Shown here: in pieces, positions 1-20,446 of the stretch
Layout: the number at the start of each line of letters is the position of its first letter
How positions within the stretch are numbered: the stretch's first letter is position 1
Source: a virus
Lineage: Duplodnaviria; Heunggongvirae; Uroviricota; Caudoviricetes
Strand: one strand, 5' to 3'
IMG/VR virus record: IMGVR_UViG_2529293217_000011
Length of the DNA: 20,446 bases
Position numbers and translations under genes: made by a program
The notes under the pieces: generated by a model
What the model saw: the letters and a program-made list of their open reading frames with translations, nothing else
What the model was told of the DNA's origin: nothing
Database searches by the model: none

Positions 1-359
1 ATTTCGCCGTCTGCCTCCGCAATGGCCACCGCCACATCCAGCACATCTTCCGCTTCACGCGTATCGTGTTTCACATCCTCAATCTCGCGTAACGCGGCAC
101 GACGACCAATTTTAAAATTGGTATCCAGCTGACCGATAATAGTTGCGCTAATCGCATTAATTTCCGAGGTAAACGCAGACAACGCAGGCTGATTACGTAA
201 GACCTGTTCGATCTTCGCTTTCTCGGATGCCTCGCATTCACCATCTGCATAGGCCACCAGGTATGCAGCGTTAATCACCGCCTGTGCCAGATCGCGTTTC
301 TCAAACTTTTTAATTTCCGCTGCCGCTCTGCGGGTTTTCTTTTTGAAGATTCCAAACAT
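1..359 (-). CDS. Hypothetical protein, 5' portion only (continues beyond window start); possibly TerB-like
   Basis: Open frame on - strand from ATG at 359 (AAGGA Shine-Dalgarno about 9 nt upstream) running off the window with no stop; N-terminus MFGIFKKKTRRAAAEIKKFEKRDLAQAVINAAYLVAYADGECE. Not in the ORF track because it is truncated by the window edge. TerB-like assignment is a weak impression only. Confidence 0.5.
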   Translation of the reverse strand, partial: MFGIFKKKTRRAAAEIKKFEKRDLAQAVINAAYLVAYADGECEASEKAKIEQVLRNQPALSAFTSEINAISATIIGQLDTNFKIGRRAALREIEDVKHDTREAEDVLDVAVAIAEADGE

Positions 360-490
360 CGTGACGTTCCTTTGGGTGGGTGAGCCAACGCCCGGGAGCG
401 ATCTGCCCACAGAGAAAGTCACACTGACCACTCCGTAAGCTCACCCCCGAAAGGCTCTGTGGTTGATATGCGCCGGGCGTGGCGCAGATA

Positions 491-515
491 CAAAAAAGGC
501 CCGCCGAAGCGAGCC
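491..515 (-). terminator. Rho-independent terminator downstream of the tRNA pair
   Basis: On the - strand a GC stem (GGCTCGC / GCGGGCC) with a UUCG loop is followed by TTTTTTG; lies immediately 3' of the tRNA at 529-605. Confidence 0.55.
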
Positions 516-528
516 TGGAAAATAAGTG

Positions 529-605
529 TGGCGCGTTGTAGTGGAGTCGAACCACTGACCGATTGCTTAGAAGGCAATTGCTCTGTCCGGCTGAGCTAAC
601 AACGC
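529..605 (-). tRNA. tRNA-Arg (anticodon TCT)
   Basis: 77-nt cloverleaf read by hand on the - strand: 7-bp acceptor stem GCGTTGT/ACAACGC, D-arm GCTC/GAGC, anticodon stem ATTGC/GCAAT with loop CTTCTAA (anticodon TCT), T-arm AGTGG-TTCGACT-CCACT, encoded CCA. Resembles the argN/argO-type tRNAs carried downstream of Q in lambdoid/Stx phages. Confidence 0.8.
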
Positions 606-705
606 AGAATACCGATAATGGACCGCCATCGGGGACCCGCCCCCGCACCAACAACCCTGTTATGGTGTCGTCTGCTCTTCCTGATAAGCTAATGGCGGTT
701 TGTGA

Positions 706-781
706 TGGTGGCCCTTGCTGGATTTGAACCAGCGACCTGGCGATTATGAGTCGCTCGCTCTCACCACTGAGCTAAAGGGCC
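706..781 (-). tRNA. tRNA with anticodon CAT, ileX/ileZ-like (tRNA-Ile2; Met cannot be excluded)
   Basis: 76-nt cloverleaf on - strand: acceptor GGCCCTT/AAGGGCC, anticodon loop CTCATAA, T-loop GGTTCAAATCC, encoded CCA. Close to the E. coli ileX sequence as I recall it. Confidence 0.8.
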
Positions 782-820
782 GGGAGCAGAATAATAACGG
801 TCCGTAATTAATTCCGCAAT

Positions 821-843
821 AAAAAACCCGCTCAATGGCGGGT
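821..843 (-). terminator. Rho-independent terminator between the Q-candidate gene and the tRNAs (tR'-like position)
   Basis: Stem ACCCGC/GCGGGT with 6-nt loop, followed on the - strand by TTTTTTATT; sits about 80 bp 3' of the gene ending at 921. Confidence 0.6.
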
Positions 844-920
844 TCTGGTAAAGTTCATGCGTTTGGTTCGCCTCGCGATACAGCTTTGCGAAGCTTACCG
901 GAATTGAAGCAGTTTTTACG

Positions 921-1475
921 TCAAAAAGCAATAACTTTTTTCTCTATACCAAAAGCCATAACCATTGGTTTGTACAAAATAAATTCTGCCACCTTTAGCC
1001 AATGCTCAATGCGTCTTTCACAGGTTCTTAAACTCCATTCCGGATGTGCATCATTCAGCAGTTCAGCCATTTTGCGCTTAGTCATCCCCCGCCCCACATA
1101 ACGCTGACTCAGAACATTGAGCAGCCCGGGATAACCTGCCAGTACTTCACCAATAACCCTGTCGATTATTAACGCCTCTGAATCGGTACAATGCACCAGC
1201 CAGCTTTTTTGCTTGCCGTTGATCATATCCCGCAAAAAAGCCTCAAGTTTAGGTTTGTCCAGACCTGCTTTTTTCATCCTCCGGAGCGCCTCGTTAATTG
1301 CCGTTTTTGTCAGCTTTTTAGAGGTCAGCAACTGGTTGAACATATTTCCCGTCTTACCGCCGCCAATATACGACCAGCGCCCCCACATACGTAGTTTCCC
1401 CTGAATCCAGACACTTTCCAGCGTGGTGAGACGAAGGTGCTCTCCGCTTTTTCCTGTGTTCGTTGGGTAAATCAT
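921..1475 (-). CDS. Hypothetical phage protein, 184 aa; positional candidate for late-gene antiterminator (Q-like)
   Basis: ORF-track frame 921..1595 trimmed to the ATG at 1475, which overlaps the upstream stop as ATGA (translational coupling). Last gene of the nin-type block before a terminator and tRNAs, the position Q occupies in lambdoid phages. No sequence motif I can tie to Q, so function is positional inference. Confidence 0.6.
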   Translation of the reverse strand: MIYPTNTGKSGEHLRLTTLESVWIQGKLRMWGRWSYIGGGKTGNMFNQLLTSKKLTKTAINEALRRMKKAGLDKPKLEAFLRDMINGKQKSWLVHCTDSEALIIDRVIGEVLAGYPGLLNVLSQRYVGRGMTKRKMAELLNDAHPEWSLRTCERRIEHWLKVAEFILYKPMVMAFGIEKKVIAF

Positions 1476-1762
1476 AAATAACCGTCCTTTCTCCAGATCT
1501 CTTGTGTGCGAAAAACACCTTCTGCATGCATCAGGCGCAATTCTTCTTTGGTGTAATCGCTGGTTTTTACTCTCCCGTCGATTAAATCGTGGCATGAGTT
1601 ACAGGCAATCGCTGCCTGCATATCGTGTGGCTTTATCGCTGTTCCGCACGTTCCCGCCAGCCTGTAATGCGCCAGCACAGAGGTTTCGGGATTGTGATTG
1701 CAGTAGCCAGGGATTCTGATCTGGCATATCTGGCCTTTAGCCGCTTTACGTAAATTCACCAT
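1472..1762 (-). CDS. YbcO-like DUF1364 protein (putative Cys-rich nin-region nuclease), 96 aa
   Basis: 96-aa ORF with cysteine cluster (CQIRIPGYC...ACNSCHDLIDGR) matching the pattern of E. coli DLP12 YbcO as I recall it; start overlaps the stop of the upstream gene (TAATG). Confidence 0.7.
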   Translation of the reverse strand: MVNLRKAAKGQICQIRIPGYCNHNPETSVLAHYRLAGTCGTAIKPHDMQAAIACNSCHDLIDGRVKTSDYTKEELRLMHAEGVFRTQEIWRKDGYL

Positions 1763-2361
1763 TACGCAAACTCCAGTAGTTGTGCGGCCACATTTTCAAC
1801 TTCCTCCTGAGAGGAGAATTTACGGAACAGAATCCAGTTCCACAGCACATTCAGTACAGATTTATAAACCTGCTGAAACTCGACTTCGTCCATATTCGCA
1901 AAAGCGATGGATTTTGCCCGACGCCCACGGCTACCGTCCGGATAAATATGCTCGGTGTAAAATCCGGCCTGAATGGTTACCCACTCGCGGAAAGCCTCAA
2001 ACGACTTTAGCAACGCCGTATCCCGGGTTCTACGAGTCGCAACGGTGTTAAGGTATTGCTCTGCGGCATCACTCAGGGCTGGCGTGTGTTCCCGACCAAC
2101 TGATTCGCACAGGTAATCAACGAAACCAGACAGCAGTTCTCGTTCGCGAGGCGTGATCGCCCCACCGACCGGAGTCCAGTAATCGAATCCCAGTTGCAGG
2201 AGTTTGAAAAAACGCTTGTGGAATGCGTAGTTACGCACACGCTTAAAATCTGCGTGTATCCACTCACCTATTTTGATTTGATGCAGAAAATCGCAACTCT
2301 CCGGCGTCGCCGGGAGAAGTAAACCAGAAGAAGTTTGTTTGACCAGTTGTATATGCGCCAT
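1762..2361 (-). CDS. Nin-region phage protein, DUF1367-like, 199 aa
   Basis: Complete 199-aa ORF directly upstream of and coupled to the YbcO-like gene; the family name is an impression from context, not a search result. Confidence 0.6.
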   Translation of the reverse strand: MAHIQLVKQTSSGLLLPATPESCDFLHQIKIGEWIHADFKRVRNYAFHKRFFKLLQLGFDYWTPVGGAITPRERELLSGFVDYLCESVGREHTPALSDAAEQYLNTVATRRTRDTALLKSFEAFREWVTIQAGFYTEHIYPDGSRGRRAKSIAFANMDEVEFQQVYKSVLNVLWNWILFRKFSSQEEVENVAAQLLEFA

Positions 2362-2780
2362 TTCTCAATCTCTCGATGGCGCAGTGCAGCAGATGCCAGT
2401 TGTTCAAGCTAGCACGCAAATTGTAAACCAGAATGCCAGGAAAAAACAAAACCCGCCGAAGCTGGTTGTGTGCGGTTGCGTTGAAGTCTCCTAGCCAAAG
2501 AGTAGCGGTGACCACTCCCCGCCGATAATCTTAGTTGTTTAATTTCGTAAGCTAACTAGGCTAAAAGCTCTCTGTTGTCTGCCTGTTGTACAATTAACAA
2601 AATGAACAACGAACTAGATATACCAACGCCAGAATGGTGCAACAAATCCCAAACAACACAGCAATGCAACAATAACATATGTTATTTTCCTCTCACGGGA
2701 TTCAGTCCTGAATTCTCATAAAGCTAATCTTTTTTTAAAAACATACTGTTAGATCACATGCACTTTCTTTCTTAACATCG

Positions 2781-2808
2781 TTGACTTCGCATGCGAAGCG
2801 TTTAAAAT
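2781..2808 (+). promoter_or_regulatory. Sigma70-type promoter for the GHKL ATPase operon with an embedded 14-bp perfect palindrome
   Basis: TTGACT (2781-2786), 16-bp spacer, TAAAAT (2803-2808), about 50 bp upstream of the ATG at 2861; the spacer contains the perfect palindrome CTTCGCATGCGAAG (2785-2798). Confidence 0.5.
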
Positions 2809-2860
2809 CAACAATTTGCACTTAAGGTATTTATTTTCCCAAACACATAGAGAGTAAATT

Positions 2861-4252
2861 ATGACTGAGAACACGACTCCAACAGCAGACTTTAGTCCTA
2901 GTAAAAGATTTTTTGTAAGTATGCTAACTCGAGATATCGACTTAAACGATGCCATACTTGATCTGCTTGATAACTGCGTCGATGGGGCTTTACGTACAAT
3001 AAAAGACACAAAAAAAACTTCAAAACCATATGAAGGATTTTATGCGAAACTTACGATTAATAAAGATGTCTTTATTATAGAAGACAATTGCGGAGGTATC
3101 CCTAAAAGCTTCCGAGAATATGCTTTTAAAATGGGACGACCCCATCAAAAAGAAGAAGAAAATGAAGGCACCGTTGGCGTCTATGGTATTGGTATGAAAA
3201 GAGCCATTTTTAAAATGGGTAGAGATTGCTCAATACAATCGAATAATCCCGATGGCGCATTCACTGTAGATATAACACCTGATTGGATCGATGGTGATGG
3301 TTGGAAAATACCGATGCACGAGAGTGACTATGATAACAAAAATCCAACAGGCACAACTATAGAGATAAAAAAACTCCATTCTAATGTGGCACAAAAATTT
3401 AATGAGAGCACATATCTTACTGATCTCTTTTTACAGATAAAACACTCATTGTCATTTATTATTCAAAAAGGATTTAAAATAGAATTAAATGGAGTTGTTG
3501 TTGAACATAATCCGATTAACATCATAACTGATCATTCTAAAATAGAACCATACATATATAAAGCTAAAATAGACGATGTTGATATCGATTTAGTTGTTGG
3601 CTTCTATAAAAATTTAGAAGATGACAATGATGATGTTTTAGAAAAAAGGAGTTCTGATGATGCTGGATGGACTGTCATTTGCAATGACCGCGTTGTTCTA
3701 TATTGTGATAAGACACATCTCACAGGTTGGGGCTTTGCTAATGTACCAAGGTTTCATACCCAATTTATAGCAATTTCTGGGGTTGTTCGCTTTACCAGTA
3801 AAAACCCAGAAAAATTACCAATAACAACAACGAAACGAGGTGTCGATCTTAGTTCTACATTGTACAATGATGTACGAAATAAAATGATTGAAGGGATGAT
3901 GCATTTTATTCGATTCACCAATCAGTGGAAAGGTGAGCATCTTGAAGAAGGGAAAAAATTACTTAAGTCAGCTCAGTCACATGAAGCTCAATCTTTATTT
4001 GAAATTACCCCACAATCAACTCCAGAAGATAAAAAAAATAACTGGTCCAACCCTAATAGAAACAAAAATGAGTGGCGATATACACCTAAGCTGCCTACCC
4101 CAGTAAAAAAAAGCTCTACTGTACGAATAATCTTCACCAGAGAGAAAGAAGATGTTAAAATTTTATCTAAATATTTCTTTGGACATGAAGATGCTAGCGC
4201 TTCTGATGTGGGGATGCAATGCTTTGATACGGTGATTGAAGAGGTGAAGTGA
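2861..4252 (+). CDS. GHKL-superfamily (Bergerat-fold) ATPase, MORC/MutL-like N-terminal domain, 463 aa
   Basis: N-terminal motifs read directly from the translation: motif I LDLLDNCVDGA (cf. MutL ELVENSLDA), motif II IEDNCGGIP (DNGxGI), motif III GVYGIGMKRAIF, motif IV NPTGTTIEI. About 290 C-terminal residues with no motif I recognise. Low-GC coding sequence. Confidence 0.8.
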   Translation: MTENTTPTADFSPSKRFFVSMLTRDIDLNDAILDLLDNCVDGALRTIKDTKKTSKPYEGFYAKLTINKDVFIIEDNCGGIPKSFREYAFKMGRPHQKEEENEGTVGVYGIGMKRAIFKMGRDCSIQSNNPDGAFTVDITPDWIDGDGWKIPMHESDYDNKNPTGTTIEIKKLHSNVAQKFNESTYLTDLFLQIKHSLSFIIQKGFKIELNGVVVEHNPINIITDHSKIEPYIYKAKIDDVDIDLVVGFYKNLEDDNDDVLEKRSSDDAGWTVICNDRVVLYCDKTHLTGWGFANVPRFHTQFIAISGVVRFTSKNPEKLPITTTKRGVDLSSTLYNDVRNKMIEGMMHFIRFTNQWKGEHLEEGKKLLKSAQSHEAQSLFEITPQSTPEDKKNNWSNPNRNKNEWRYTPKLPTPVKKSSTVRIIFTREKEDVKILSKYFFGHEDASASDVGMQCFDTVIEEVK

Positions 4253-5241
4253 TGTCTGGACAATACATTCCCTATCACTTAAGGCATAATAAGTCTATTG
4301 ATAGAGAGATTTTTCTCGAAAGCCTAAACCTCTTAAGCAAAAGACTAAATATTCAAGAATATACATATATAGGTTTTGGTGGTCCGATGCTTGAAGATTT
4401 TAGAATCATGCATAATCGTATCGCTCTTTCTGATATGATTTCTCTCGAAGAACAAGAGTCTACTCACATCAGACAAAAATATAATTTGCCTTATAATTGT
4501 ATTGATTGTAAGCTAATATCAGCTCATGACTTTATTCTTGATTATAGTTTTTCTAAACCATCAATAACATGGTTAGACTATGCCTCCCCGAAAAAAATAC
4601 AAACGGATCTAGATGATATACACTTACTAAGTACTAAAGTAAGCTCTTTTGATATTTTGAAGGTCACCTTCCCCATAAATCCTAGTTCTTATTACCAACG
4701 TAGAGTTGGAGAAAGTTTAGATATTTTTAAAGAAGCTTTTATTAATTCATTAAAATCATTGCTTGGGAAAAAGTATCTTGATTTTAATCTTCAGATATCA
4801 AATGCAGATCTTTCAGATCGTAAGATTAAAGCTCTTTTAATACGAATTATTACAAACGCTTTTAGATCAGCAATAGAACGTGGTCTTTCAGGACGTAAGG
4901 ATAAGATTCAGTATTACCCATTATCCTTAAATCAATATAATGATGGCAGTCATACCATGTTGACAATATCAGGTTTTTTCTCCTCAGAACAAGAATATAT
5001 AGAGTTATCTAAGGCATGCGACCTTTCTAACTGGCAATTTTATTCAACAAATTGGGAAGACGTGCAAGAAATAGCAATACCAACACTAACAATTAAAGAA
5101 AAGATAAATTTAGATAGTAAACTGCCTGATAAAGAAGCATATCAGGCAGCCGCTGAAGAGTTCTCTTTAAACGAAAATGAACGGGATAACTATTATAAAT
5201 ACTATAGGTTATACCCTAACTTCCAAAGAATTATGGTTTAA
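4252..5241 (+). CDS. Hypothetical protein, about 330 aa, translationally coupled partner of the GHKL ATPase
   Basis: ATG at 4252 overlaps the TGA stop of the ATPase gene (TGATG); the ORF track starts it at GTG 4249. AT-rich like its neighbour. No catalytic motif (PD-(D/E)xK, HNH, PLD) could be assigned by eye. Confidence 0.7.
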   Translation: MSGQYIPYHLRHNKSIDREIFLESLNLLSKRLNIQEYTYIGFGGPMLEDFRIMHNRIALSDMISLEEQESTHIRQKYNLPYNCIDCKLISAHDFILDYSFSKPSITWLDYASPKKIQTDLDDIHLLSTKVSSFDILKVTFPINPSSYYQRRVGESLDIFKEAFINSLKSLLGKKYLDFNLQISNADLSDRKIKALLIRIITNAFRSAIERGLSGRKDKIQYYPLSLNQYNDGSHTMLTISGFFSSEQEYIELSKACDLSNWQFYSTNWEDVQEIAIPTLTIKEKINLDSKLPDKEAYQAAAEEFSLNENERDNYYKYYRLYPNFQRIMV

Positions 5242-6360
5242 ATATTCGGGCTGTACTCTTTTATTTAATAAATTGTACAGCCCCTTTAATATATATTCAG
5301 CAACTATTGGTGACACGCTATTTCCTATTTGTCTGAAACTATGCCATTTAGTTACATGAAAGCGAAACCAATCAGGGAAGCCTTGTAATCTAGCAGCTTC
5401 TCTTGGTGTAATCACTCTTGGATGATAAGGGTGGATCGGCCTGACGGCTTGAAAGCTTCCTTTATCTCTAGCGGTTCCCGCCCTTAAAGTCGGGCAAAAA
5501 CCATTTGGATCTAATCTTGTAGATCTTGAAATTTTATCAGTTTCCCCAAAAGATAAGGAAGCATAACGCTCTTGGACGATTTTGCTATGTAATGTTCCGG
5601 TACATCCAGATATGATATTATTTTTTAACTTAGCGATCGATTCTGTATCACCAACATTCCGAGGGATCTGCCCCCATAATTTTTCATAAAATCCCCCTTT
5701 TCGATCTTTTTTAATTGTTCGCCAACTCTCAGAGTCTGATTGCCAATTGGCATCGATAATATCTGGTAATCCATACAAAGCATCTTTTACAGTAACCGGA
5801 TCAATCATTTTAGGCATAAATACTTCATCTGAAATATCAAGCTTCAATGATTTTTTTACACCGATAAAAAAATATCTAGTTCGAATAGTTGGAGCACCAT
5901 AATCAGATGCTTTTACCTTGATGGGATCAAGAATATCATAATCACCGCTAACCAAATTAAATGCTTTATTTCTAATGCCAGAATATTTCTCTTGCATAAT
6001 ACCTGGAACATTTTCTGCCAAAAAGAATAATGGCTGTAATTCTGATACTAAACGGTAGAAATGCATGTAAAGCTGATTCCTGCTATCATCAGGATTCCCC
6101 TTGCCTATTGAACTAAATCCTTGGCACGGAGGACCGCCAATAATACCATCTATGGGCATATCGTTTTTAAAAAAACCCTTAATTATTTCTGCATTTAGTA
6201 AAGAAACATCTTCTTGGACGTGCAAACTTCTTGGAAAATTAATTGCGTGAGTATTAATAGCATGTTGATCAATTTCAACTGCCATTTTAACATCAAATCC
6301 AGCACGTGCAGCACCAAGACTTAGACCTCCAACGCCAGAAAACAAATCTATTACATTCAT
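5209..6360 (-). CDS. DNA (cytosine-5)-methyltransferase, 383 aa
   Basis: Canonical C5-MTase motifs: motif I DLFSGVGG, motif IV GGPPCQGFS (catalytic PCQ), ENV, C-terminal motif X QIGNSVSP. The 3' end overlaps the convergent partner gene by 33 bp (5209-5241). Confidence 0.9.
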   Translation of the reverse strand: MNVIDLFSGVGGLSLGAARAGFDVKMAVEIDQHAINTHAINFPRSLHVQEDVSLLNAEIIKGFFKNDMPIDGIIGGPPCQGFSSIGKGNPDDSRNQLYMHFYRLVSELQPLFFLAENVPGIMQEKYSGIRNKAFNLVSGDYDILDPIKVKASDYGAPTIRTRYFFIGVKKSLKLDISDEVFMPKMIDPVTVKDALYGLPDIIDANWQSDSESWRTIKKDRKGGFYEKLWGQIPRNVGDTESIAKLKNNIISGCTGTLHSKIVQERYASLSFGETDKISRSTRLDPNGFCPTLRAGTARDKGSFQAVRPIHPYHPRVITPREAARLQGFPDWFRFHVTKWHSFRQIGNSVSPIVAEYILKGLYNLLNKRVQPEYLNHNSLEVRV

Positions 6361-6392
6361 ATAGTTGCAACGTCTCTTATTAGTTTCTATGT

Positions 6393-6401
6393 ATTATAAC
6401 A
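6393..6401 (-). promoter_or_regulatory. Extended -10 element (TGtTATAAT) upstream of the methyltransferase gene
   Basis: On the - strand TGTTATAAT lies about 33 nt upstream of the MTase ATG (6360) in an AT-rich leader. Confidence 0.4.
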
Positions 6402-6791
6402 CAACTGTTCTTGATGTTTTAACCCCATAAGATAACCTCATAAAGGCTATCCCTTGAAAATACCGGATCGCATAAATTTAATCTTTCAAAACTACTTGTC
6501 TATTAATCGAGCAATTTAAGGTTGTTTTAGTCATGTCGATACCGACATAGTTAACTAAACCCATTTCATCGTCCAACAAATGGGGGTAATACACTTTGAT
6601 TTATAGTCGGGTGGGTTTTTCTCTATCTGCCTTTGGTGTTCATGCCCAAGGCAGATAGCCTCAAGCACCCGCAGCAATTCTACTTAACTATCCTTTTCCC
6701 GCAAATCGTTTTTATCCCCAGCGGCAAATCGAATACACAACCAGCGCCACCGCCATCGCAATTCCTACCGTTGTGAATGCTTCAGGCCAGG

Positions 6792-14491: not shown

Positions 14492-17092
14492 ATGAGCACA
14501 AAACCACTCTTCCTGTTACGGAAAGCGAAAAAATCATCCGGTGAACCTGACGTCGTCCTGTGGGCAAGCAACGATTTTGAATCGACCTGTGCCACTCTGG
14601 ACTACCTGATCGTTAAGTCAGGTAAAAAACTGAGCAGCTATTTTAAAGCTGTTGCCACGAATTTTCCTGTCGTTAATGACCTGCCCGCTGAAGGTGAGAT
14701 CGATTTTACCTGGAGTGAACGCTATCAACTCAGCAAAGACTCCATGACATGGGAACTAAAACCGGGAGCAGCACCAGACAACGCTCACTATCAAGGCAAT
14801 ACCAACGTCAACGGCGAAGACATGACTGAGATTGAGGAGAATATGCTACTCCCAATTTCTGGCCAGGAACTGCCCATTCGTTGGCTTGCTCAACACGGCA
14901 GCGAAAAACCGGTAACGCACGTTTCACGCGACGGACTCCAGGCATTACACATTGCTCGGGCTGAAGAACTACCGGCTGTTACTGCCCTGGCTGTTTCCCA
15001 CAAAACCAGCCTGCTCGACCCGCTGGAAATTCGCGAACTCCACAAACTGGTTCGTGACACTGACAAAGTTTTCCCTAATCCTGGTAATTCAAACCTGGGA
15101 CTGATAACTGCTTTTTTCGAAGCATACCTGAACGCTGACTACACCGATCGAGGACTGCTGACAAAAGAGTGGATGAAGGGTAATCGTGTTTCACACATCA
15201 CTCGCACGGCTTCCGGTGCTAATGCTGGCGGCGGAAACCTCACCGATCGCGGCGAAGGTTTCGTACACGATCTGACGTCACTGGCGCGCGACGTAGCCAC
15301 TGGCGTACTGGCCCGTTCAATGGATCTGGACATCTATAACCTTCATCCGGCACACGCTAAACGCATTGAGGAAATTATCGCTGAAAATAAACCGCCCTTT
15401 TCTGTTTTCCGCGACAAATTCATCACCATGCCTGGCGGGCTGGATTATTCCCGCGCCATCGTGGTTGCGTCCGTAAAAGAAGCACCAATTGGGATCGAGG
15501 TCATCCCCGCGCACGTCACTGAATATCTGAACAAAGTACTGACTGAAACCGATCATGCCAACCCTGATCCGGAAATCGTGGATATTGCCTGCGGTCGCTC
15601 CTCTGCCCCGATGCCGCAGCGAGTAACAGAAGAAGGAAAACAGGATGATGAAGAAAAACCGCAACCATCTGGAACAACGGCAGTTGAACAGGGAGAGGCT
15701 GAAACAATGGAACCGGACGCAACTGAACATCATCAGGACACGCAGCCGCTGGATGCTCAGTCACAGGTAAATTCTGTTGATGCGAAATATCAGGAACTGC
15801 GGGCAGAACTCCATGAAGCCCGGAAAAACATTCCATCAAAAAATCCTGTCGATGCCGATAAATTGCTTGCTGCATCACGTGGTGAATTTGTTGACGGAAT
15901 TAGCGACCCGAACGATCCGAAATGGGTAAAGGGGATCCAGACTCGCGATTGTGTGTACCAGAACCAGCCAGAAACGGAAAAAACCAGCCCGGATATGAAT
16001 CAACCTGAGCCAGTAGTGCAACAGGAACCGGAAATAGCCTGCAATGCCTGCGGCCAGACTGGCGGGGATAACTGCCCTGACTGTGGTGCGGTGATGGGCG
16101 ACGCAACATACCAGGAAACATTCGATGAAGAGAGTCAGGTTGAAGCTAAGGAAAATGATCCGGAGGAAATGGAAGGCGCTGAACATCCGCACAATGAGAA
16201 TGCTGGCAGCGATCCGCATCGCGATTGCAGTGATGAAACTGGCGAAGTCGCAGATCCCGTAATCGTAGAAGACATAGAGCCAGGTATTTATTACGGAATT
16301 TCGAATGAGAATTACCACGCGGGTCCCGGTGTCAGTAAGTCTCAGCTCGATGACATTGCTGATACTCCGGCACTGTATTTGTGGCGTAAAAATGCCCCCG
16401 TGGACACCACAAAGACAAAAACGCTCGATTTAGGAACCGCTTTCCACTGCCGGGTACTTGAGCCGGAAGAATTCAGTAACCGCTTTATCGTAGCACCTGA
16501 ATTTAACCGCCGGACAAACTCCGGAAAAGAAGAAGAGAAAGCGTTTCTGAGGGAATGCGCAAGCACAGGAAAAACGGTTATCACTGCCGAAGAAGGCCGG
16601 AAAATTGAACTCATGTATCAGAGCGTTATGGCTTTGCCGCTGGGGCAATGGCTTGTTGAAAGCGCCGGACACGCTGAATCATCAATTTACTGGGAAGATC
16701 CTGAAACAGCAATTTTGTGTCGGTGCCGTCCGGACAAAATTATCCCTGAATTTCACTGGATCATGGACGTGAAAACTACGGCGGATATTCAACGATTCAA
16801 AACCGCTTATTACGACTACCGCTATCACGTTCAGGATGCATTCTACAGTGACGGTTATGAAGCACAGTTTGGAGTGCAGCCAACTTTCGTTTTTCTGGTT
16901 GCCAGCACAACTATTGAATGCGGACGTTATCCGGTTGAAATTTTCATGATGGGCGAAGAAGCAAAACTGGCAGGTCAGCTGGAATATCACCGCAATCTGC
17001 GAACCCTGGCTGACTGCCTCAATACCGATGAATGGCCAGCTATTAAGACGTTATCACTGCCCCGCTGGGCTAAGGAATATGCAAATGACTAA
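14492..17092 (+). CDS. recE: Exodeoxyribonuclease VIII (RecE), 866 aa, apparently intact
   Basis: Full-length 866-aa ORF recognised as RecE; the C-terminal nuclease region (...[27 protein letters not shown]...) is present. Confidence 0.95.
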
Positions 17093-17894
17093 GCAACCAC
17101 CAATCGCAAAAGCCGATCTGCAAAAAACTCAGGGAAACCGTGCACCAGCAGCAATTAAAAATAACGACGTGATTAGTTTTATTAACCAGCCATCAATGAA
17201 AGAGCAACTGGCAGCAGCTCTTCCACGCCATATGACGGCTGAACGTATGATCCGTATCGCCACCACAGAAATTCGTAAAGTTCCGGCGTTAGGAAACTGT
17301 GACACTATGAGTTTTGTCAGTGCAATCGTACAGTGTTCACAGCTCGGACTTGAGCCCGGTAGCGCCCTCGGTCATGCATATTTACTGCCTTTTGGTAATA
17401 AAAACGAAAAGAGCGGTAAAAAAAACGTTCAGCTAATCATTGGCTATCGAGGCATGATTGATCTGGCTCGCCGTTCAGGTCAAATCGCCAGCTTGTCAGC
17501 CCGTGTTGTCCGTGAAGGTGACGAGTTTAATTTCGAATTTGGCCTTGATGAAAAGTTAATACACCGCCCAGGAGAAAACGAAGATGCCCCTGTTACCCAC
17601 GTCTATGCTGTCGCAAGACTGAAAGACGGAGGTACTCAGTTTGAAGTTATGACGCGCAAACAGATTGAGCTGGTGCGCAGCCAGAGTAAAGCTGGTAATA
17701 ACGGGCCGTGGGTAACTCACTGGGAAGAAATGGCAAAGAAAACGGCTATTCGTCGCCTGTTCAAATATCTGCCCGTATCAATTGAGATCCAGCGTGCAGT
17801 ATCAATGGATGAAAAGGAACCACTGACAATCGATCCTGCAGATTCCTCTGTATTAACCGGGGAATACAGTGTAATCGATAATTCAGAGGAATAA
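17085..17894 (+). CDS. recT: Single-strand annealing recombinase RecT, 269 aa
   Basis: [50 protein letters not shown]...; the start overlaps the recE 3' end by 8 nt; the ORF-track start at 17028 is an upstream in-frame extension. Confidence 0.95.
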
Positions 17895-17949
17895 TTCAGC
17901 CTGGCGGTGTAATGCACCGCCAACTTGAAATATTTTTATGAGAAAAATT

Positions 17950-18099
17950 ATGAGATATGACAATGTTAAACCATGTCCATTTTGTGGTTGTCCATCAGTA
18001 ACGGTGAAAGCCATTTCAGGATATTACCGAGCGAAGTGTAACGGATGCGAATCCCGAACCGGTTATGGTGGAAGTGAAAAAGAAGCACTCGAACGATGA
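17950..18099 (+). pseudogene. ralR: ralR (lar, restriction alleviation), truncated at codon 50 by in-frame TGA; frame continues to 18144
   Basis: MRYDNVKPCPFCGCPSVTVKAISGYYRAKCNGCESRTGYGGSEKEALER then TGA (18097-18099), then in frame NKRTTGNNNGGVHV and TAA. The K-12 RalR I recall is 64 aa with TGG (Trp) at this position. Confidence 0.7.
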
Positions 18100-18136
18100 A
18101 ATAAACGAACCACTGGAAATAATAATGGAGGTGTTC

Positions 18137-18325
18137 ATGTATAAAATTACCGCCACTATTGAAAAGGAAGGTGGCACTCCTACTAACTGGACAAGATATT
18201 CAAAATCTAAACTAACGAAATCAGAATGCGAAAAAATGCTCTCAGGTAAAAAAGAAGCAGGCGTTTCCAGAGAGCAGAAAGTAAAACTGATAAATTTTAA
18301 TTGCGAGAAACTTCAGTCCTCGTGA
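18137..18325 (+). CDS. ydaC: YdaC-like protein, 62 aa as encoded (in-frame TGA, then 6 further sense codons)
   Basis: MYKITATIEKEGGTPTNWTRYSKSKLTKSECEKMLSGKKEAGVSREQKVKLINFNCEKLQSS then TGA (18323-18325), then in frame IALYSN and TAA (18344-18346). The K-12 YdaC I recall is 69 aa ending SSRIALYSN. Confidence 0.7.
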   Translation: MYKITATIEKEGGTPTNWTRYSKSKLTKSECEKMLSGKKEAGVSREQKVKLINFNCEKLQSS

Positions 18326-18424
18326 ATTGCATTGTATTCAAATTAAAACTTCATAGCTGATTATTAATAATCAACATCGGGCGTCAATTTAAGTCTAACA
18401 TTGGCGCCTGCCAGAGGTGATGCG

Positions 18425-18640
18425 ATGGCACAAGTAATCTTTAATGAAGAGTGGATGGTTGAATACGGCCTGATGCTTCGCACTGGTCTGGGGGCCAGAC
18501 AAATTGAAGCATACCGCCAGAACTGTTGGGTGGAAGGCTTCCACTTCAAACGAGTATCTCCTTTAGGGAAGCCAGACAGTAAGCGAGGGATTATCTGGTA
18601 TAACTATCCAAAGATAAATCAGTTTATCAAAGACTCATGA
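18425..18640 (+). CDS. xisR: Excisionase XisR (YdaQ), 71 aa
   Basis: ORF-track frame trimmed to [44 protein letters not shown]...; lies immediately upstream of the integrase. Confidence 0.85.
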
Positions 18641-18641
18641 T

Positions 18642-19877
18642 ATGTCTAAATTACCAACAGGTGTCGAGATTCGAGGTAAATACATTCGCATCTGGTTCAT
18701 GTTTCGAGGAAAACGATGTCGGGAAACATTGAAAGGCTGGGAGGTTACTAACAGTAACATTAAAAAAGCCGGGAATTTAAGAGCGTTGATAGTTCATGAA
18801 ATCAATTCCGGTGAGTTTGAGTATTTAAGACGTTTTCCCCAGTCCAGCACTGGGGCAAAAATGGTGACAACGAGGGTCATAAAAACGTTCGGGGAGCTTT
18901 GTGATATCTGGACAAAAATTAAAGAAACAGAGTTAACAACAAACACAATGAAGAAAACGAAATCACAATTAAAAACACTCAGGATAATAATTTGTGAGAG
19001 TACTCCGATATCGCATATTCGTTATAGCGATATCTTAAACTACCGGAATGAACTGCTGCATGGAGAAACGCTTTACCTGGATAATCCAAGATCCAACAAA
19101 AAAGGAAGAACCGTGCGCACAGTTGATAACTATATCGCCCTGCTCTGTTCGTTGTTACGTTTTGCGTATCAGTCGGGATTTATATCAACCAAACCATTTG
19201 AAGGAGTAAAGAAATTACAGAGAAACAGAATAAAGCCTGACCCGTTATCTAAAACAGAATTCAATGCATTAATGGAAAGTGAAAAAGGACAGAGCCAGAA
19301 CTTGTGGAAATTTGCCGTATACTCCGGGCTTCGTCACGGGGAACTGGCTGCTCTGGCGTGGGAGGATGTGGATTTCGAGAAGGGAGTTGTGAATGTCAGA
19401 AGAAACCTGACGATACTGGATATGTTCGGTCCCCCAAAAACAAATGCGGGGATCCGGACGGTAACACTACTGCAGCCTGCTCTTGAAGCACTGAAGGAGC
19501 AATACAAACTGACCGGGCATCATCGCAAAAGCGAAATCACCTTTTATCATCGGGAGTACGGCAGAACCGAAAAGCAAAAACTGCATTTTGTTTTCATGCC
19601 CAGGGTGTGTAACGGAAAACAAAAACCTTATTACTCGGTAAGCAGTTTGGGGGCAAGGTGGAATGCAGCAGTAAAACGTGCTGGTATTCGCCGCCGTAAT
19701 CCGTACCATACGCGGCATACTTTTGCCTGCTGGCTGTTGACGGCAGGAGCGAACCCGGCATTTATAGCCAGCCAAATGGGGCATGAAACTGCGCAGATGG
19801 TGTATGAAATTTACGGTATGTGGATTGATGACATGAACGACGAACAGGTAGCCATGTTGAATGCGCGGTTATCATAG
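18642..19877 (+). CDS. intR: Rac-type tyrosine integrase IntR, 411 aa
   Basis: Full 411-aa ORF (MSKLPTGVEIRGKYIRIWFMFRGKRCRETLKGW...) with C-terminal catalytic region (...HTRHTFACWLLTAGANPAFIASQMGHETAQMVYEIY). Confidence 0.95.
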   Translation: MSKLPTGVEIRGKYIRIWFMFRGKRCRETLKGWEVTNSNIKKAGNLRALIVHEINSGEFEYLRRFPQSSTGAKMVTTRVIKTFGELCDIWTKIKETELTTNTMKKTKSQLKTLRIIICESTPISHIRYSDILNYRNELLHGETLYLDNPRSNKKGRTVRTVDNYIALLCSLLRFAYQSGFISTKPFEGVKKLQRNRIKPDPLSKTEFNALMESEKGQSQNLWKFAVYSGLRHGELAALAWEDVDFEKGVVNVRRNLTILDMFGPPKTNAGIRTVTLLQPALEALKEQYKLTGHHRKSEITFYHREYGRTEKQKLHFVFMPRVCNGKQKPYYSVSSLGARWNAAVKRAGIRRRNPYHTRHTFACWLLTAGANPAFIASQMGHETAQMVYEIYGMWIDDMNDEQVAMLNARLS

Positions 19878-19884
19878 TTGCAAA

Positions 19885-19908
19885 GTTTGCCCCCAATTTG
19901 CCCCATTT
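19885..19908. repeat. Two tandem TTTGCCCC(C/A) units just 3' of intR; putative integrase arm-type sites
   Basis: GTTTGCCCCCAA and TTTGCCCCATTT read directly; same motif as the larger cluster at 20082-20131. Confidence 0.45.
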
Positions 19909-19928
19909 AGTACCAGAGAACTGAAATA

Positions 19929-19988
19929 ATGCAAGAAAATCAACAAATTACAAAGAAAGAACAATACAACCTGAACAAGTCAGAGTAA
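19929..19988 (+). pseudogene. ttcA-like 5' fragment (19 codons) at the prophage junction
   Basis: ATG CAA GAA AAT CAA CAA ATT ACA AAG AAA GAA CAA TAC AAC CTG AAC AAG (MQENQQITKKEQYNLNK) matches the TtcA N-terminus as I recall it, then diverges (SE-stop). Rac is known to integrate in ttcA. Confidence 0.4.
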
Positions 19989-20081
19989 AAACCGCAACTA
20001 TCTGACGAACAATAACTTTTATGTTTTTCAATATGTTAGGCAGGATTAACAACTACAATAAAGCACAATAATCTACACTTT

Positions 20082-20131
20082 TTTTGCCCCATTTTTGCCC
20101 CTTTTGCGGCCTTTTGTCCCATTTTTGCCAC
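20082..20131. repeat. Five tandem roughly 10-bp repeats, consensus TTTTGCCCCA; candidate Int arm-type binding sites or att-region repeats
   Basis: TTTTGCCCCA TTTTTGCCCC TTTTGCGGCC TTTTGTCCCA TTTTTGCCAC with about 10-bp periodicity. Confidence 0.5.
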
Positions 20132-20241
20132 AGTAAAAATCTATAACTAATCAATCTGGCGCCCATGATTTCTTTCCAATAGAATCAGTTCCGGCTGGAA
20201 ATCATTAGATACTCGCACTATCGAAAAGCTTACCAGCCAAC

Positions 20242-20276
20242 CGCGGCACGTTCTTGCATACGAGGTGCCGCGTTTT
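20242..20276 (+). terminator. Hairpin CGCGGCAC...GTGCCGCG followed by TTTTA; possible terminator
   Basis: 8-bp perfect stem, 15-nt loop, U-tract on the + strand; context unknown because the window ends soon after. Confidence 0.3.
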
Positions 20277-20446
20277 ACATGCCGTACCGAGAATTAATTT
20301 CATTTTACGAAAAGTTAACCCGCCATTGCTACCTTAATTTTTTAAAACGAAGTTACCTCTGTCAGGGTCAAAAGCACAATTATCTCTTCCTACAATCATT
20401 GAAACTGCGATTGATTCCCTGCTCAAAGGATGAGCCGCCCTTGTTT

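What the first reader, a model, noticed from the sequence alone, without database searches (positions are those of the whole stretch)
19878..20135. att-type region: TTTTGCCCC repeat arrays flanking a 19-codon ttcA-like start
Immediately after intR there are two TTTGCCCC units, then a short ORF whose first 17 codons match the TtcA N-terminus I recall (MQENQQITKKEQYNLNK) before diverging into a stop, then five more tandem units of about 10 bp at 20082-20131. Repeats on both sides of a gene-start fragment are what an attP-like arrangement looks like, with arm-type Int sites flanking a core inside ttcA. The sequence after the fragment is not ttcA coding sequence, so either this is the truncated duplicate at the junction or the element is in an excised or unintegrated configuration.
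Basis: partly seen in the sequence, partly recalled or inferred. Interest (0 to 1): 0.55.

Follow-up and report, generated by a model that had tools for sequence, protein, structure and literature searches.

The report
attP site of excised prophage Sp10
This stretch is the phage attachment site (attP) of the Rac-like E. coli O157 prophage Sp10 in its excised, circular arrangement, and the short TTTGCCCC repeats on both sides of the crossover point are most likely the docking sites for the phage integrase; the site itself is already known, so the finding is correct but ordinary.

Summary
Window 1-19978 is 100% identical to the integrase end of prophage Sp10 of E. coli O157:H7 Sakai (next to ttcA). 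Window 19953-20446 is 100% identical to the opposite end of Sp10 (next to uspF). The two share a 26-bp core, 19953-19978. The window therefore carries the attP junction of circularised Sp10. It matches the attP sequenced by Asadulghani et al. 2009, and their attP PCR primers map convergently in the window.

The 19-codon ORF (19929-19988) is the phage-borne replacement 5' end of ttcA. The repeats are not chance: the dimer TGCCCC-N5-TGCCCC occurs twice against 0.00 expected. They survive in diverged Rac-type arms (K-12 Rac, phage PHB10). Eight further phages, whose integrases are only 35-44% identical but share the PF12167 arm-binding domain, show the same layout: a pair, an IHF-like site in most of them, then further pair(s) about 207 bp downstream. 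Where the core is known (Sp10/Rac, the Stx1 phage) it lies between the pairs.

Published XisR gel shifts, remapped here, argue against the array being excisionase sites. Integrase binding itself is untested. The att site is known; the arm-site motif was not found in the literature I could search.

The parts
18425..18640 (+). xisR (ydaQ), excisionase / recombination directionality factor, 71 aa
   Evidence: Pfam DUF1233 putative excisionase, E 6e-21. Annotated as xisR in K-12 and F6294. Shown to promote Rac excision (PMC4632033).
18642..19877 (+). intR-type tyrosine integrase (Sp10 ECs_1929), 411 aa, with an N-terminal arm-DNA-binding domain
   Evidence: Pfam PF12167 Arm-DNA-bind_2 at residues 5-69 (E 2e-26) plus PF00589 at 205-391. 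100% identical DNA in Sakai Sp10.
19886..19904 (+). Int-proximal pair of putative arm-type sites (TTTGCCCC at 19886-19893 and 19897-19904, 11 bp apart)
   Evidence: Conserved in PHB10 while the surrounding sequence has diverged. The same pair lies at or just before the int stop in 8 more phage genomes. It is also found in 61 of 80 viral-contig loci, with none elsewhere on either strand in 250 kb.
19929..19988 (+). ttcA' : phage-borne replacement 5' end of ttcA (17 TtcA codons, then SE-stop read from the other phage arm)
   Evidence: In the lysogen these 17 codons are fused to host ttcA. The displaced host start, MSQNQEISKKEQYNLNK, remains at attR as ttcC. Four amino-acid changes are described in PMC4632033.
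19938..19950 (+). IHF-consensus site (AATCAACAAATTA = WATCAANNNNTTR) between the proximal arm pair and the core
   Evidence: Perfect match, one of only 3 in the window. An IHF-like site with at most 1 mismatch sits at the same offset (+48/+49 from the proximal unit) in 7 of 10 phage attP regions. Binding was not tested.
19953..19978 (.). 26-bp common core AAGAAAGAACAATACAACCTGAACAA (the identity block shared by attP, attL and attR); strand exchange must occur inside it
   Evidence: Ungapped comparison with both Sp10 ends in Sakai. Same 26 bp annotated as attP in phage Rac-SA53. Core shown in Fig S5 of PMC2669165.
20026..20038 (+). second IHF-like site (TTTCAATATGTTA, 1 mismatch) between the core and the distal array
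   Evidence: The homologous position in PHB10 is a perfect consensus (AATCAATTAGTTA). The block is conserved in K-12 Rac and APEC O1 arms. Similar sites occur at +139/+140 in the Providencia and Stx1 phages. Weaker evidence than the first site.
20080..20131 (+). Int-distal array of putative arm-type sites: pair A (20080-20101), degenerate filler (20102-20111), pair B (20112-20131)
   Evidence: Nearly invariant in the K-12 Rac attR arm, which is only 80% identical overall. Retained in PHB10. The 'pair, 19-20 bp, pair' spacing is shared with K-12 Rac, PHB10 and the Stx1 phage NC_004913.
20334..20446 (-). 3' end of nleG5-1 (T3SS effector, DUF1076), the last gene at the tail-fibre/effector end of Sp10; marks the right-hand DNA as the other prophage end

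Best explanation
The region is the complete attP site (about 250 bp, 19883-20131) of the Rac-like lambdoid prophage Sp10 / CP-933R of E. coli O157:H7, in the arrangement produced when the prophage excises and circularises.

Proposed mechanism, modelled on lambda. IntR is a heterobivalent tyrosine integrase. Its catalytic and core-binding domains act on the 26-bp core (19953-19978) inside the first codons of ttcA. Its N-terminal PF12167 domain docks on TGCCCC(A) arm-type sites. These form one pair on the int side (19886-19904) and two pairs on the far side (20080-20131). IHF-type bends at 19938-19950 and about 20026-20038 fold the arms back onto the core.

Integration into host ttcA splits attP. 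The int-proximal pair, the IHF site and the phage copy of the ttcA start go to attL, where they rebuild an intact ttcA with four altered residues. The distal array goes to attR, next to the displaced host start (ttcC).

What is shown: the junction identity, the core, the ttcA replacement, and the conservation and geometry of the repeats. What is inferred: that Int binds the repeats and that IHF binds the two consensus sites.
For: Junction:
- Window 1-19978 is 100% identical to Sakai Sp10 up to attL.
- Window 19953-20446 is 100% identical to the far end of Sp10. The only shared block is 26 bp.
- No complete E. coli genome among 5,426 carries the junction contiguously over at least 80% of the query.
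- The junction equals the sequenced attP of circular Sp10. The authors' attP primers map convergently at 19409-19431 (+) and 20141-20164 (-).

Repeats:
- The array is nearly invariant in the K-12 Rac arm, which is otherwise 80% identical.
- It is retained in the true phage PHB10, whose arms are otherwise strongly diverged.
- Eight other complete phages with Int 35-44% identical show a TGCCCCA pair 11 bp apart at the int 3' end. Seven of them show further exact pair(s) 207-211 bp (250 in CharmingMan) downstream on the same strand; mEp460 shows only a single exact distal unit at the matching position.
- Where the core is known, it lies between the pairs: the 26-bp core in Sp10/Rac and the 7-bp attachment site annotated in the Stx1 phage NC_004913.
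- 61 of 80 viral-contig loci have the proximal pair. There were zero such pairs anywhere else on either strand in 250 kb.

Int rather than Xis:
- Int carries the PF12167 arm-binding domain.
- The motif sits on both arms.
- Aeromonas phage pAEv1818 keeps the architecture although its Xis has no DUF1233 hit and no BLASTP similarity to XisR.
- In K-12, XisR shifted fragment AttR but not AttM (PMC4632033). Remapping the primers shows AttM contains the whole array.

IHF: a consensus site at a conserved offset in 7 of 10 phages.
Against: - There is no direct binding or mutational evidence for IntR at these repeats, neither here nor in the literature I could search.
- Int and DUF1233 Xis co-occur in 9 of the 10 motif-bearing phages. 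The Int-versus-Xis separation therefore rests on one Aeromonas phage and one remapped EMSA.
- Three more distant PF12167 integrases (phiCTX, phiES15, Kp4866-6; 29-32% identity) lack the motif. So do most members of one environmental clade. The motif is therefore not universal for the domain.
- Many of the compared phages are related, so part of the shared geometry could be inherited rather than independently constrained.
- A single-site PWM is too weak to single out the units.
- Two of the five distal units in Sp10 are imperfect.
Confidence: 0.8

Rival explanations
1. The junction is not a free circle. It is a chromosomal hybrid att site between two prophages integrated in tandem at ttcA (Sp10-Sp10 or Sp10 plus a relative). 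Locally this looks exactly like attP.
For: Tandem junctions of this kind exist. In O157:H7 F6294, int is followed directly by the nleC/tail-fibre end of a second prophage (97.7% identity over 19600-20276). APEC O1 and relatives have an int remnant, the core and the arm of a cdt prophage. Sp10 integrates in tandem with Rac in K-12 (PMC2669165). The window ends 468 nt after the core, so it cannot show what lies beyond.
Against: Both halves are 100% identical to the two ends of one and the same Sp10. None of 5,426 complete E. coli genomes carries this exact junction contiguously. Circular Sp10 with this junction has been detected experimentally, even without induction. The anatomy and mechanism of the site would be the same in either case.
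Confidence: 0.15
2. The five-unit distal array is the binding array of the excisionase XisR (as with lambda Xis X1-X2, L5 Xis or P2 Cox boxes) rather than of Int.
For: RDFs typically bind tandem direct repeats at about one helical turn on one arm. XisR binds a 294-bp K-12 AttR fragment that includes the array (PMC4632033). Int and DUF1233 Xis co-occur in 9 of 10 motif-bearing phages.
Against: The same motif pair also sits on the other arm, next to int. XisR did not shift fragment AttM, which starts right after the core and contains the entire array. Phage pAEv1818 keeps the motif architecture with an unrelated Xis.
Confidence: 0.06
3. The repeats are non-functional simple sequence (slippage in a T/C-rich stretch) or an unrelated signal, such as a promoter or terminator for neighbouring genes.
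For: Short T-rich units. Units 3-5 are imperfect. The loose 9-mer search is not significant.
Against: The units are conserved while the flanks diverge. The same motif, 11-bp pairing, strand and roughly 207-bp separation recur in phages of Escherichia, Klebsiella, Enterobacter, Providencia and Aeromonas. No promoter-like or terminator-like site was found in the att region. The array lies downstream of nleG5-1, not upstream.
Confidence: 0.03

Closest known systems
attP of prophage Sp10 / CP-933R (E. coli O157:H7) and of Rac (E. coli K-12), integrating into the 5' end of ttcA
   Same: It is this site. The left half is 100% identical to Sp10 attL and the right half to Sp10 attR. It has the same 26-bp core as the attP annotated in phage Rac-SA53 and as in Fig S5 of Asadulghani et al. 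2009. It has the same ttcA N-terminal replacement described by Liu et al. 2015.
   Different: Nothing differs at the sequence level. The papers I could read define only the core and the TtcA change. They do not name arm-type or IHF sites.
Bacteriophage lambda attP (P1-H1-P2-X-F-H2-core-H'-P'1P'2P'3) with heterobivalent Int, IHF and Xis
   Same: Size of about 250 bp. The int and xis genes are adjacent. The short int-proximal arm holds tandem arm sites separated from the core by an IHF consensus site. The long int-distal arm carries further arm sites. The integrase has a separate N-terminal arm-binding domain.
   Different: The arm motif differs (TGCCCCA here; the lambda consensus, from memory, is C/AAGTCACTAT). 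The arm-binding domain family differs: PF12167 here, in the 'IntBPP-1' subgroup of Smyshlyaev et al. 2021. There are six candidate sites in three pairs rather than five sites. The core lies inside a protein-coding gene, and the phage carries a replacement gene start. Xis is of the DUF1233 type, and according to the remapped EMSA it needs the core/host side of attR.
Prophages that carry a replacement end of their target gene (e14 and phage 21 in icd; many tRNA-gene integrators)
   Same: attP contains a copy of the target gene's end, so the gene stays intact after integration and a short pseudogene duplicate (here ttcC) is left at the other junction.
   Different: Here the 5' end is replaced, including the start codon and everything upstream. 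In the lysogen, ttcA expression must therefore be driven from phage DNA (inference, not tested).

Membership tests
Lambda-type attP of a heterobivalent tyrosine integrase | Adjacent tyrosine integrase gene with a separate N-terminal arm-DNA-binding domain | tested here: met
   PF12167 at residues 5-69 plus PF00589 at 205-391. The int stop is 8 nt before the first repeat unit.
Lambda-type attP of a heterobivalent tyrosine integrase | Common core shared by attP, attL and attR, with flanks exchanged between them | tested here: met
   26-bp identity block at 19953-19978. The left flank equals attL and the right flank equals attR of Sakai Sp10. Matches published L/P/R sequences.
Lambda-type attP of a heterobivalent tyrosine integrase | Repeated arm-type motif, unrelated to the core, on both arms | tested here: met
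   TGCCCC units at 19886-19904 and 20080-20131. Conserved across diverged phages.
Lambda-type attP of a heterobivalent tyrosine integrase | Int N-domain physically binds the arm-type sites, and they are required for recombination | not testable with these tools
   Needs EMSA or footprinting and mutant att sites. No such data were found in the searchable literature.
Lambda-type attP of a heterobivalent tyrosine integrase | Accessory bending-protein (IHF) sites between the core and the arm sites | tested here: inconclusive
   Perfect consensus at 19938-19950 and a 1-mismatch site at 20026-20038. The first sits at a conserved offset in 7 of 10 phages. This is consensus only; binding is not shown.
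Lambda-type attP of a heterobivalent tyrosine integrase | Adjacent excisionase (RDF) controlling directionality | tested here: met
   xisR at 18425-18640, DUF1233. Its function is shown in K-12 (PMC4632033).
Sp10 / Rac ttcA-specific attP | Sequence identity to both ends of Sp10, the published core, and the phage-type TtcA N-terminus MQENQQITKKEQYNLNK | tested here: met
Sp10 / Rac ttcA-specific attP | The junction exists as a real circular excision product | not testable with these tools
   Shown experimentally for Sakai by attP PCR and sequencing (PMC2669165). Whether this particular window came from a circle or a tandem array cannot be told from 20 kb.
RDF (Xis) binding array | The excisionase binds the repeat array | tested here: not met
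   Indirect. The published EMSA fragment AttM, which XisR does not shift, was remapped and contains the whole array.

The most novel reading that the evidence does not exclude
The TGCCCCA units define a previously undescribed, family-wide 'arm code' for the PF12167 (IntBPP-1 subgroup) integrases. This subgroup includes the integrases of many Stx-converting and effector-carrying EHEC prophages. The fixed attP geometry would be: pair, then an IHF site at +49, then the core at about +65 to +90, then a distal pair or pairs at about +207. If true, attP cores, integration sites and exact prophage ends could be predicted from sequence for this whole group. The proximal pair, lying inside or just after int, would also mark the int end of the prophage.
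Probability: 0.35. Interest if true: 0.4.

Novelty: already known. Interest (0 to 1): 0.2.

Why it matters
The finding correctly recognises a phage attachment site from raw sequence. It also shows that the window represents the excised (or tandem) form of an O157 effector-carrying prophage that is known to circularise spontaneously and to transfer to K-12.

The practical value is modest. The analysis gives a base-level map of the Sp10/Rac attP: arm sites, IHF-like sites, core and the replacement ttcA start. The papers I could read stop at the core. It also suggests a simple sequence signature, TGCCCC-N5-TGCCCC at the int 3' end and again about 207 bp on. That signature could help delimit prophages of this integrase subgroup, including Stx phages. 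None of this changes what is understood about site-specific recombination.

Tried and rejected
- A looser motif search (TTTTGCCCC with 1 mismatch) was not significant.
- A 15-nt PWM trained on the other phages ranked chance hits as high as the real units. Only the paired, phased arrangement is discriminating.
- A close-relative scan of IMG/VR with IntR returned 80 near-identical prophages. They were either cut at the int stop or integrated in ttcA, so none gave an independent attP.
- The promoter/terminator scan found nothing in the att region. I could not assign the promoter that drives ttcA in lysogens.
- The hairpin plus T-run at 20242-20279 folds at -18 kcal/mol, but with z = -0.9 it is not distinguishable from shuffles.
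- Int-versus-Xis separation by co-occurrence failed for nine phages, because all of them carry DUF1233 excisionases.
- phiCTX, phiES15 and Kp4866-6 (PF12167 integrases, 29-32% identity) have no TGCCCC pairs. One environmental clade mostly lacks them next to int.
- Literature searches for arm-type sites of IntR, Stx-phage or DUF3596 integrases, and for the motif itself, found no description. Subscription-only papers were not searchable.

Full report
**1. What is in the sequence**

- intR ends at 19877.
- Nine nucleotides later there are two exact TTTGCCCC units, at 19886-19893 and 19897-19904, 11 bp apart.
- A short ORF at 19929-19988 encodes MQENQQITKKEQYNLNKSE*. Its first 17 residues equal the N-terminus of K-12 TtcA.
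- Tandem Repeats Finder reports an array at 20081-20129 (period 11, 4.8 copies, score 45).
- Read by eye, the array is TTTTTTGCCCC / ATTTTTGCCCC / TTTTGCGGCC / TTTTGTCCC / ATTTTTGCCAC. That is two pairs of good units separated by one degenerate unit.
- Exact TTTGCCCC occurs 5 times in the window against 0.87 expected.
- The phased dimer TGCCCC-N5-TGCCCC occurs twice, both on the + strand and both in this region, against 0.00 expected.
- A looser search is not significant.

**2. What the junction is**

The whole window was compared with 5,426 complete E. coli genomes.

- Positions 1-19978 are 100% identical to prophage Sp10 of O157:H7 Sakai, and to the same prophage in EDL933 and many other O157 strains. 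In every case the match stops at 19978, where ttcA continues in those genomes.
- The remaining DNA, from 19936 on, matches the opposite end of Sp10. That end lies next to uspF and carries nleG5-1, nleG6-1, nleG2-2 and the tail-fibre genes.
- An ungapped three-way comparison shows the window equals attL through 19978 and equals attR from 19953. The two share exactly 26 bp: AAGAAAGAACAATACAACCTGAACAA, 19953-19978.
- This 26-mer is annotated as attP in phage Rac-SA53.

The window therefore carries attP, the product of recombination between attL and attR of one Sp10.

No complete genome carries this junction contiguously over at least 80% of the query.

Asadulghani et al. 2009 (PMC2669165) detected circular Sp10 in Sakai by PCR across attP, even without induction, and sequenced the junction.
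- Their L/P/R alignment in Fig S5 matches the reverse complement of window 19933-19984, allowing for OCR noise.
- Their attP primers map convergently at 19409-19431 (+) and 20141-20164 (-).
- Their qPCR primers map at 19859-19880 (+) and 19986-20009 (-).

**3. The tandem-junction caveat**

A chromosomal junction between two prophages integrated in tandem at ttcA looks locally the same, and such junctions exist.
- O157:H7 F6294 has int followed directly by the nleC/tail-fibre end of a second prophage.
- APEC O1 and relatives have an int remnant, the core and the arm of a cdt-carrying prophage.
- Sp10 integrates in tandem with Rac in K-12, using Rac attR as attB.

Both halves here are 100% identical to the two ends of the same Sp10, so I favour the circle. 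Twenty kilobases cannot exclude an Sp10-Sp10 tandem. The anatomy of the site is identical either way.

**4. The ttcA fragment**

- The phage copy encodes MQENQQITKKEQYNLNK.
- The host copy left at attR (ttcC) encodes MSQNQEISKKEQYNLNK.
- Integration fuses the phage-borne start to host ttcA. This gives the four-residue change in TtcA described by Liu et al. 2015 (PMC4632033).
- The 19-codon ORF in attP is thus a replacement gene start, not a degraded gene. Its last two codons and stop are simply read from the other phage arm.

**5. Are the repeats functional? Close relatives**

- The K-12 Rac attR arm is only 80.6% identical to the window over 19936-20139. The array is nevertheless almost invariant, and unit 4 is perfect there.
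- Phage PHB10 is a genuine phage genome with int in the middle of the record, so its attP is intact. Its int matched the window at about 80% nucleotide identity over the aligned 3' end.
- PHB10's arms are otherwise strongly diverged. It still keeps two proximal units 11 bp apart and a five-unit distal array with the same degenerate third unit.

**6. Are the repeats functional? Distant relatives**

I then took complete phage genomes whose integrases are only 35-44% identical to IntR: mEp460, Fraca, CharmingMan, Providencia PSTRCR_117lys, Enterobacter CobraSix, Klebsiella Mulock, Stx1-converting phage NC_004913 and Aeromonas pAEv1818.

- A de novo k-mer count found TGCCCCA-type words as the most repeated 8-mers downstream of int in Fraca, CharmingMan, CobraSix and the Stx1 phage. 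They ranked among the top few in the Providencia phage and Mulock.
- Mapping the words showed one architecture. There is a pair of TGCCCC(A) exactly 11 bp apart at or just before the int stop.
- In seven of the eight phages there is a second exact pair, or two pairs, 207-211 bp downstream on the same strand (250 bp in CharmingMan). mEp460 has only a single exact distal unit at the matching position.
- The distal 'pair, 19-20 bp, pair' spacing of Rac-type phages recurs in the Stx1 phage.
- In the Stx1 phage the annotated 7-bp attachment site lies between the pairs. Its offset corresponds to the right half of the Sp10 26-bp core.

In a wider sample of 80 viral-contig loci found with an integrase alignment:
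- 61 have the exact proximal pair, representing 45 distinct int 3' ends.
- No such pair occurs anywhere else on either strand in 250 kb.
- None of the 30 loci with at least 300 nt downstream shows a distal pair. That is what is expected if these are integrated prophages whose distal arm is at the other end. I did not verify this locus by locus.

**7. IHF-like sites**

- A perfect IHF consensus (AATCAACAAATTA) lies at 19938-19950. It is inside ttcA' codons 4-8 and abuts the core. It is one of only three matches in the window.
- An IHF-like site with at most 1 mismatch sits at the same offset (+48/+49 from the proximal unit) in 7 of the 10 phage attP regions.
- A second site at 20026-20038 (1 mismatch) is a perfect consensus in PHB10 and has counterparts in the Stx1 and Providencia phages.
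- The int-proximal arm therefore reads 'arm pair, IHF, core'. This is the design of the lambda P' arm (established knowledge). Binding is not shown.

**8. Int or Xis?**

- IntR and all the compared integrases carry the PF12167 arm-DNA-binding domain. This places them in the 'IntBPP-1' subgroup of Smyshlyaev et al. 2021, whose members are called putative.
- Nine of the ten motif-bearing phages also carry a DUF1233 excisionase. Co-occurrence therefore cannot separate the two proteins.

Three points favour Int:
- (a) The same pair occurs on both arms.
- (b) Aeromonas phage pAEv1818 keeps the architecture, although its Xis has no DUF1233 hit and no BLASTP similarity to XisR.
- (c) Liu et al. found that XisR shifts the 294-bp fragment AttR but not the 291-bp fragment AttM. 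Mapping their primers on K-12 shows AttM begins immediately after the core and contains the IHF-like site and the entire array. AttR additionally holds the core, ttcC and host DNA. The array is therefore not sufficient for XisR binding.

**9. Limits**

- No Int-DNA binding or att mutagenesis exists for this family in the literature I could search.
- More distant PF12167 integrases (phiCTX, phiES15, Kp4866-6) lack the motif. So does most of one environmental clade.
- Many of the compared phages are related, so shared geometry is partly inherited.

**10. Verdict**

The finding is correct and well read.
- The att site, its core, the circular form and the TtcA change are published.
- What I add is a base-level map of candidate arm-type and IHF sites, and the observation that the TGCCCCA pair architecture is shared across this integrase subgroup.
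- Confidence that this is Sp10 attP (circle or tandem) is about 0.97. Confidence that the repeats are Int arm-type sites is about 0.8.
- Interest is low, because this is a textbook kind of element in a well-studied prophage.

Noticed in passing
window 20242-20279 (+): Hairpin GCGGCAC(N15)GTGCCGC followed by TTTT, 260 nt into the int-distal arm. The K-12 Rac copy keeps it with an apparently compensatory change. It could stop transcription entering the prophage from the displaced host ttcA promoter at attR. However, the fold is not better than shuffles (z -0.9), and the terminator scan did not call it.
   Followed up: partly
L093, L094, L096, L097, L098 (about 100-135 nt downstream of the int-proximal TGCCCCA pair): A block of about 30 nt (TTTTAAAAATCGAYAAAGATCGTCCAAGAGCGC-like) is conserved in the int-distal arm of the phages Fraca, CharmingMan, CobraSix, Mulock and the Stx1 phage. 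It is a candidate accessory (Xis?) site. It is not evident in Sp10/Rac.
   Followed up: no
window 19674-19724 versus host DNA between uspF and ttcC (L007 6751-6801, L005 3591-3641, L003 4863-4913): A 51-nt piece of the intR 3' region is 76% identical to host DNA just upstream of the ttcC start. It may be a relic of an older integrase at the ttcA hotspot. The match is weak (E 7e-5 against a tiny database).
   Followed up: no
window 19774-19788 (-) and the same place in PHB10 and the Stx1 phage: A further TGCCCCAT lies on the opposite strand inside int. It encodes the conserved Q-M-G-H of the integrase, so it is probably a coding coincidence rather than an arm site. Another lies at 18852-18860 (-), in the 5' part of int.
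   Followed up: partly
L002 (O157:H7 F6294), L008/L009 (APEC O1, L1PEag1), L011 ('Salmonella phage SPF_0923'): ttcA is a hotspot with tandem or decayed elements. F6294 has a Rac-like prophage abutting a second prophage with nleC. APEC O1-type strains have sit-gene and int remnants, then a cdt-carrying prophage. The record SPF_0923 includes host genes (nifJ/pfo, ompN, uspF) and sitABCD next to a Rac-type arm, so it looks like a mis-delimited chromosomal region.
   Followed up: partly
host ttcC / attB copy of ttcA codons 4-8 (L005, L007): The host version AATCAAGAAATTA also fits the IHF consensus, like the phage copy at window 19938-19950. Similarity between the phage-borne and host ttcA starts extends 17 nt beyond the 26-bp core (14 of 17 identical).
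   Followed up: no
PMC4632033 EMSA fragments mapped on K-12 (L005 3290-3583 and 3169-3459): XisR binding requires DNA present in AttR but absent from AttM. That DNA is the core, the ttcC start or the host upstream region, not the phage arm. This is unusual compared with lambda Xis, which binds the phage arm.
   Followed up: partly
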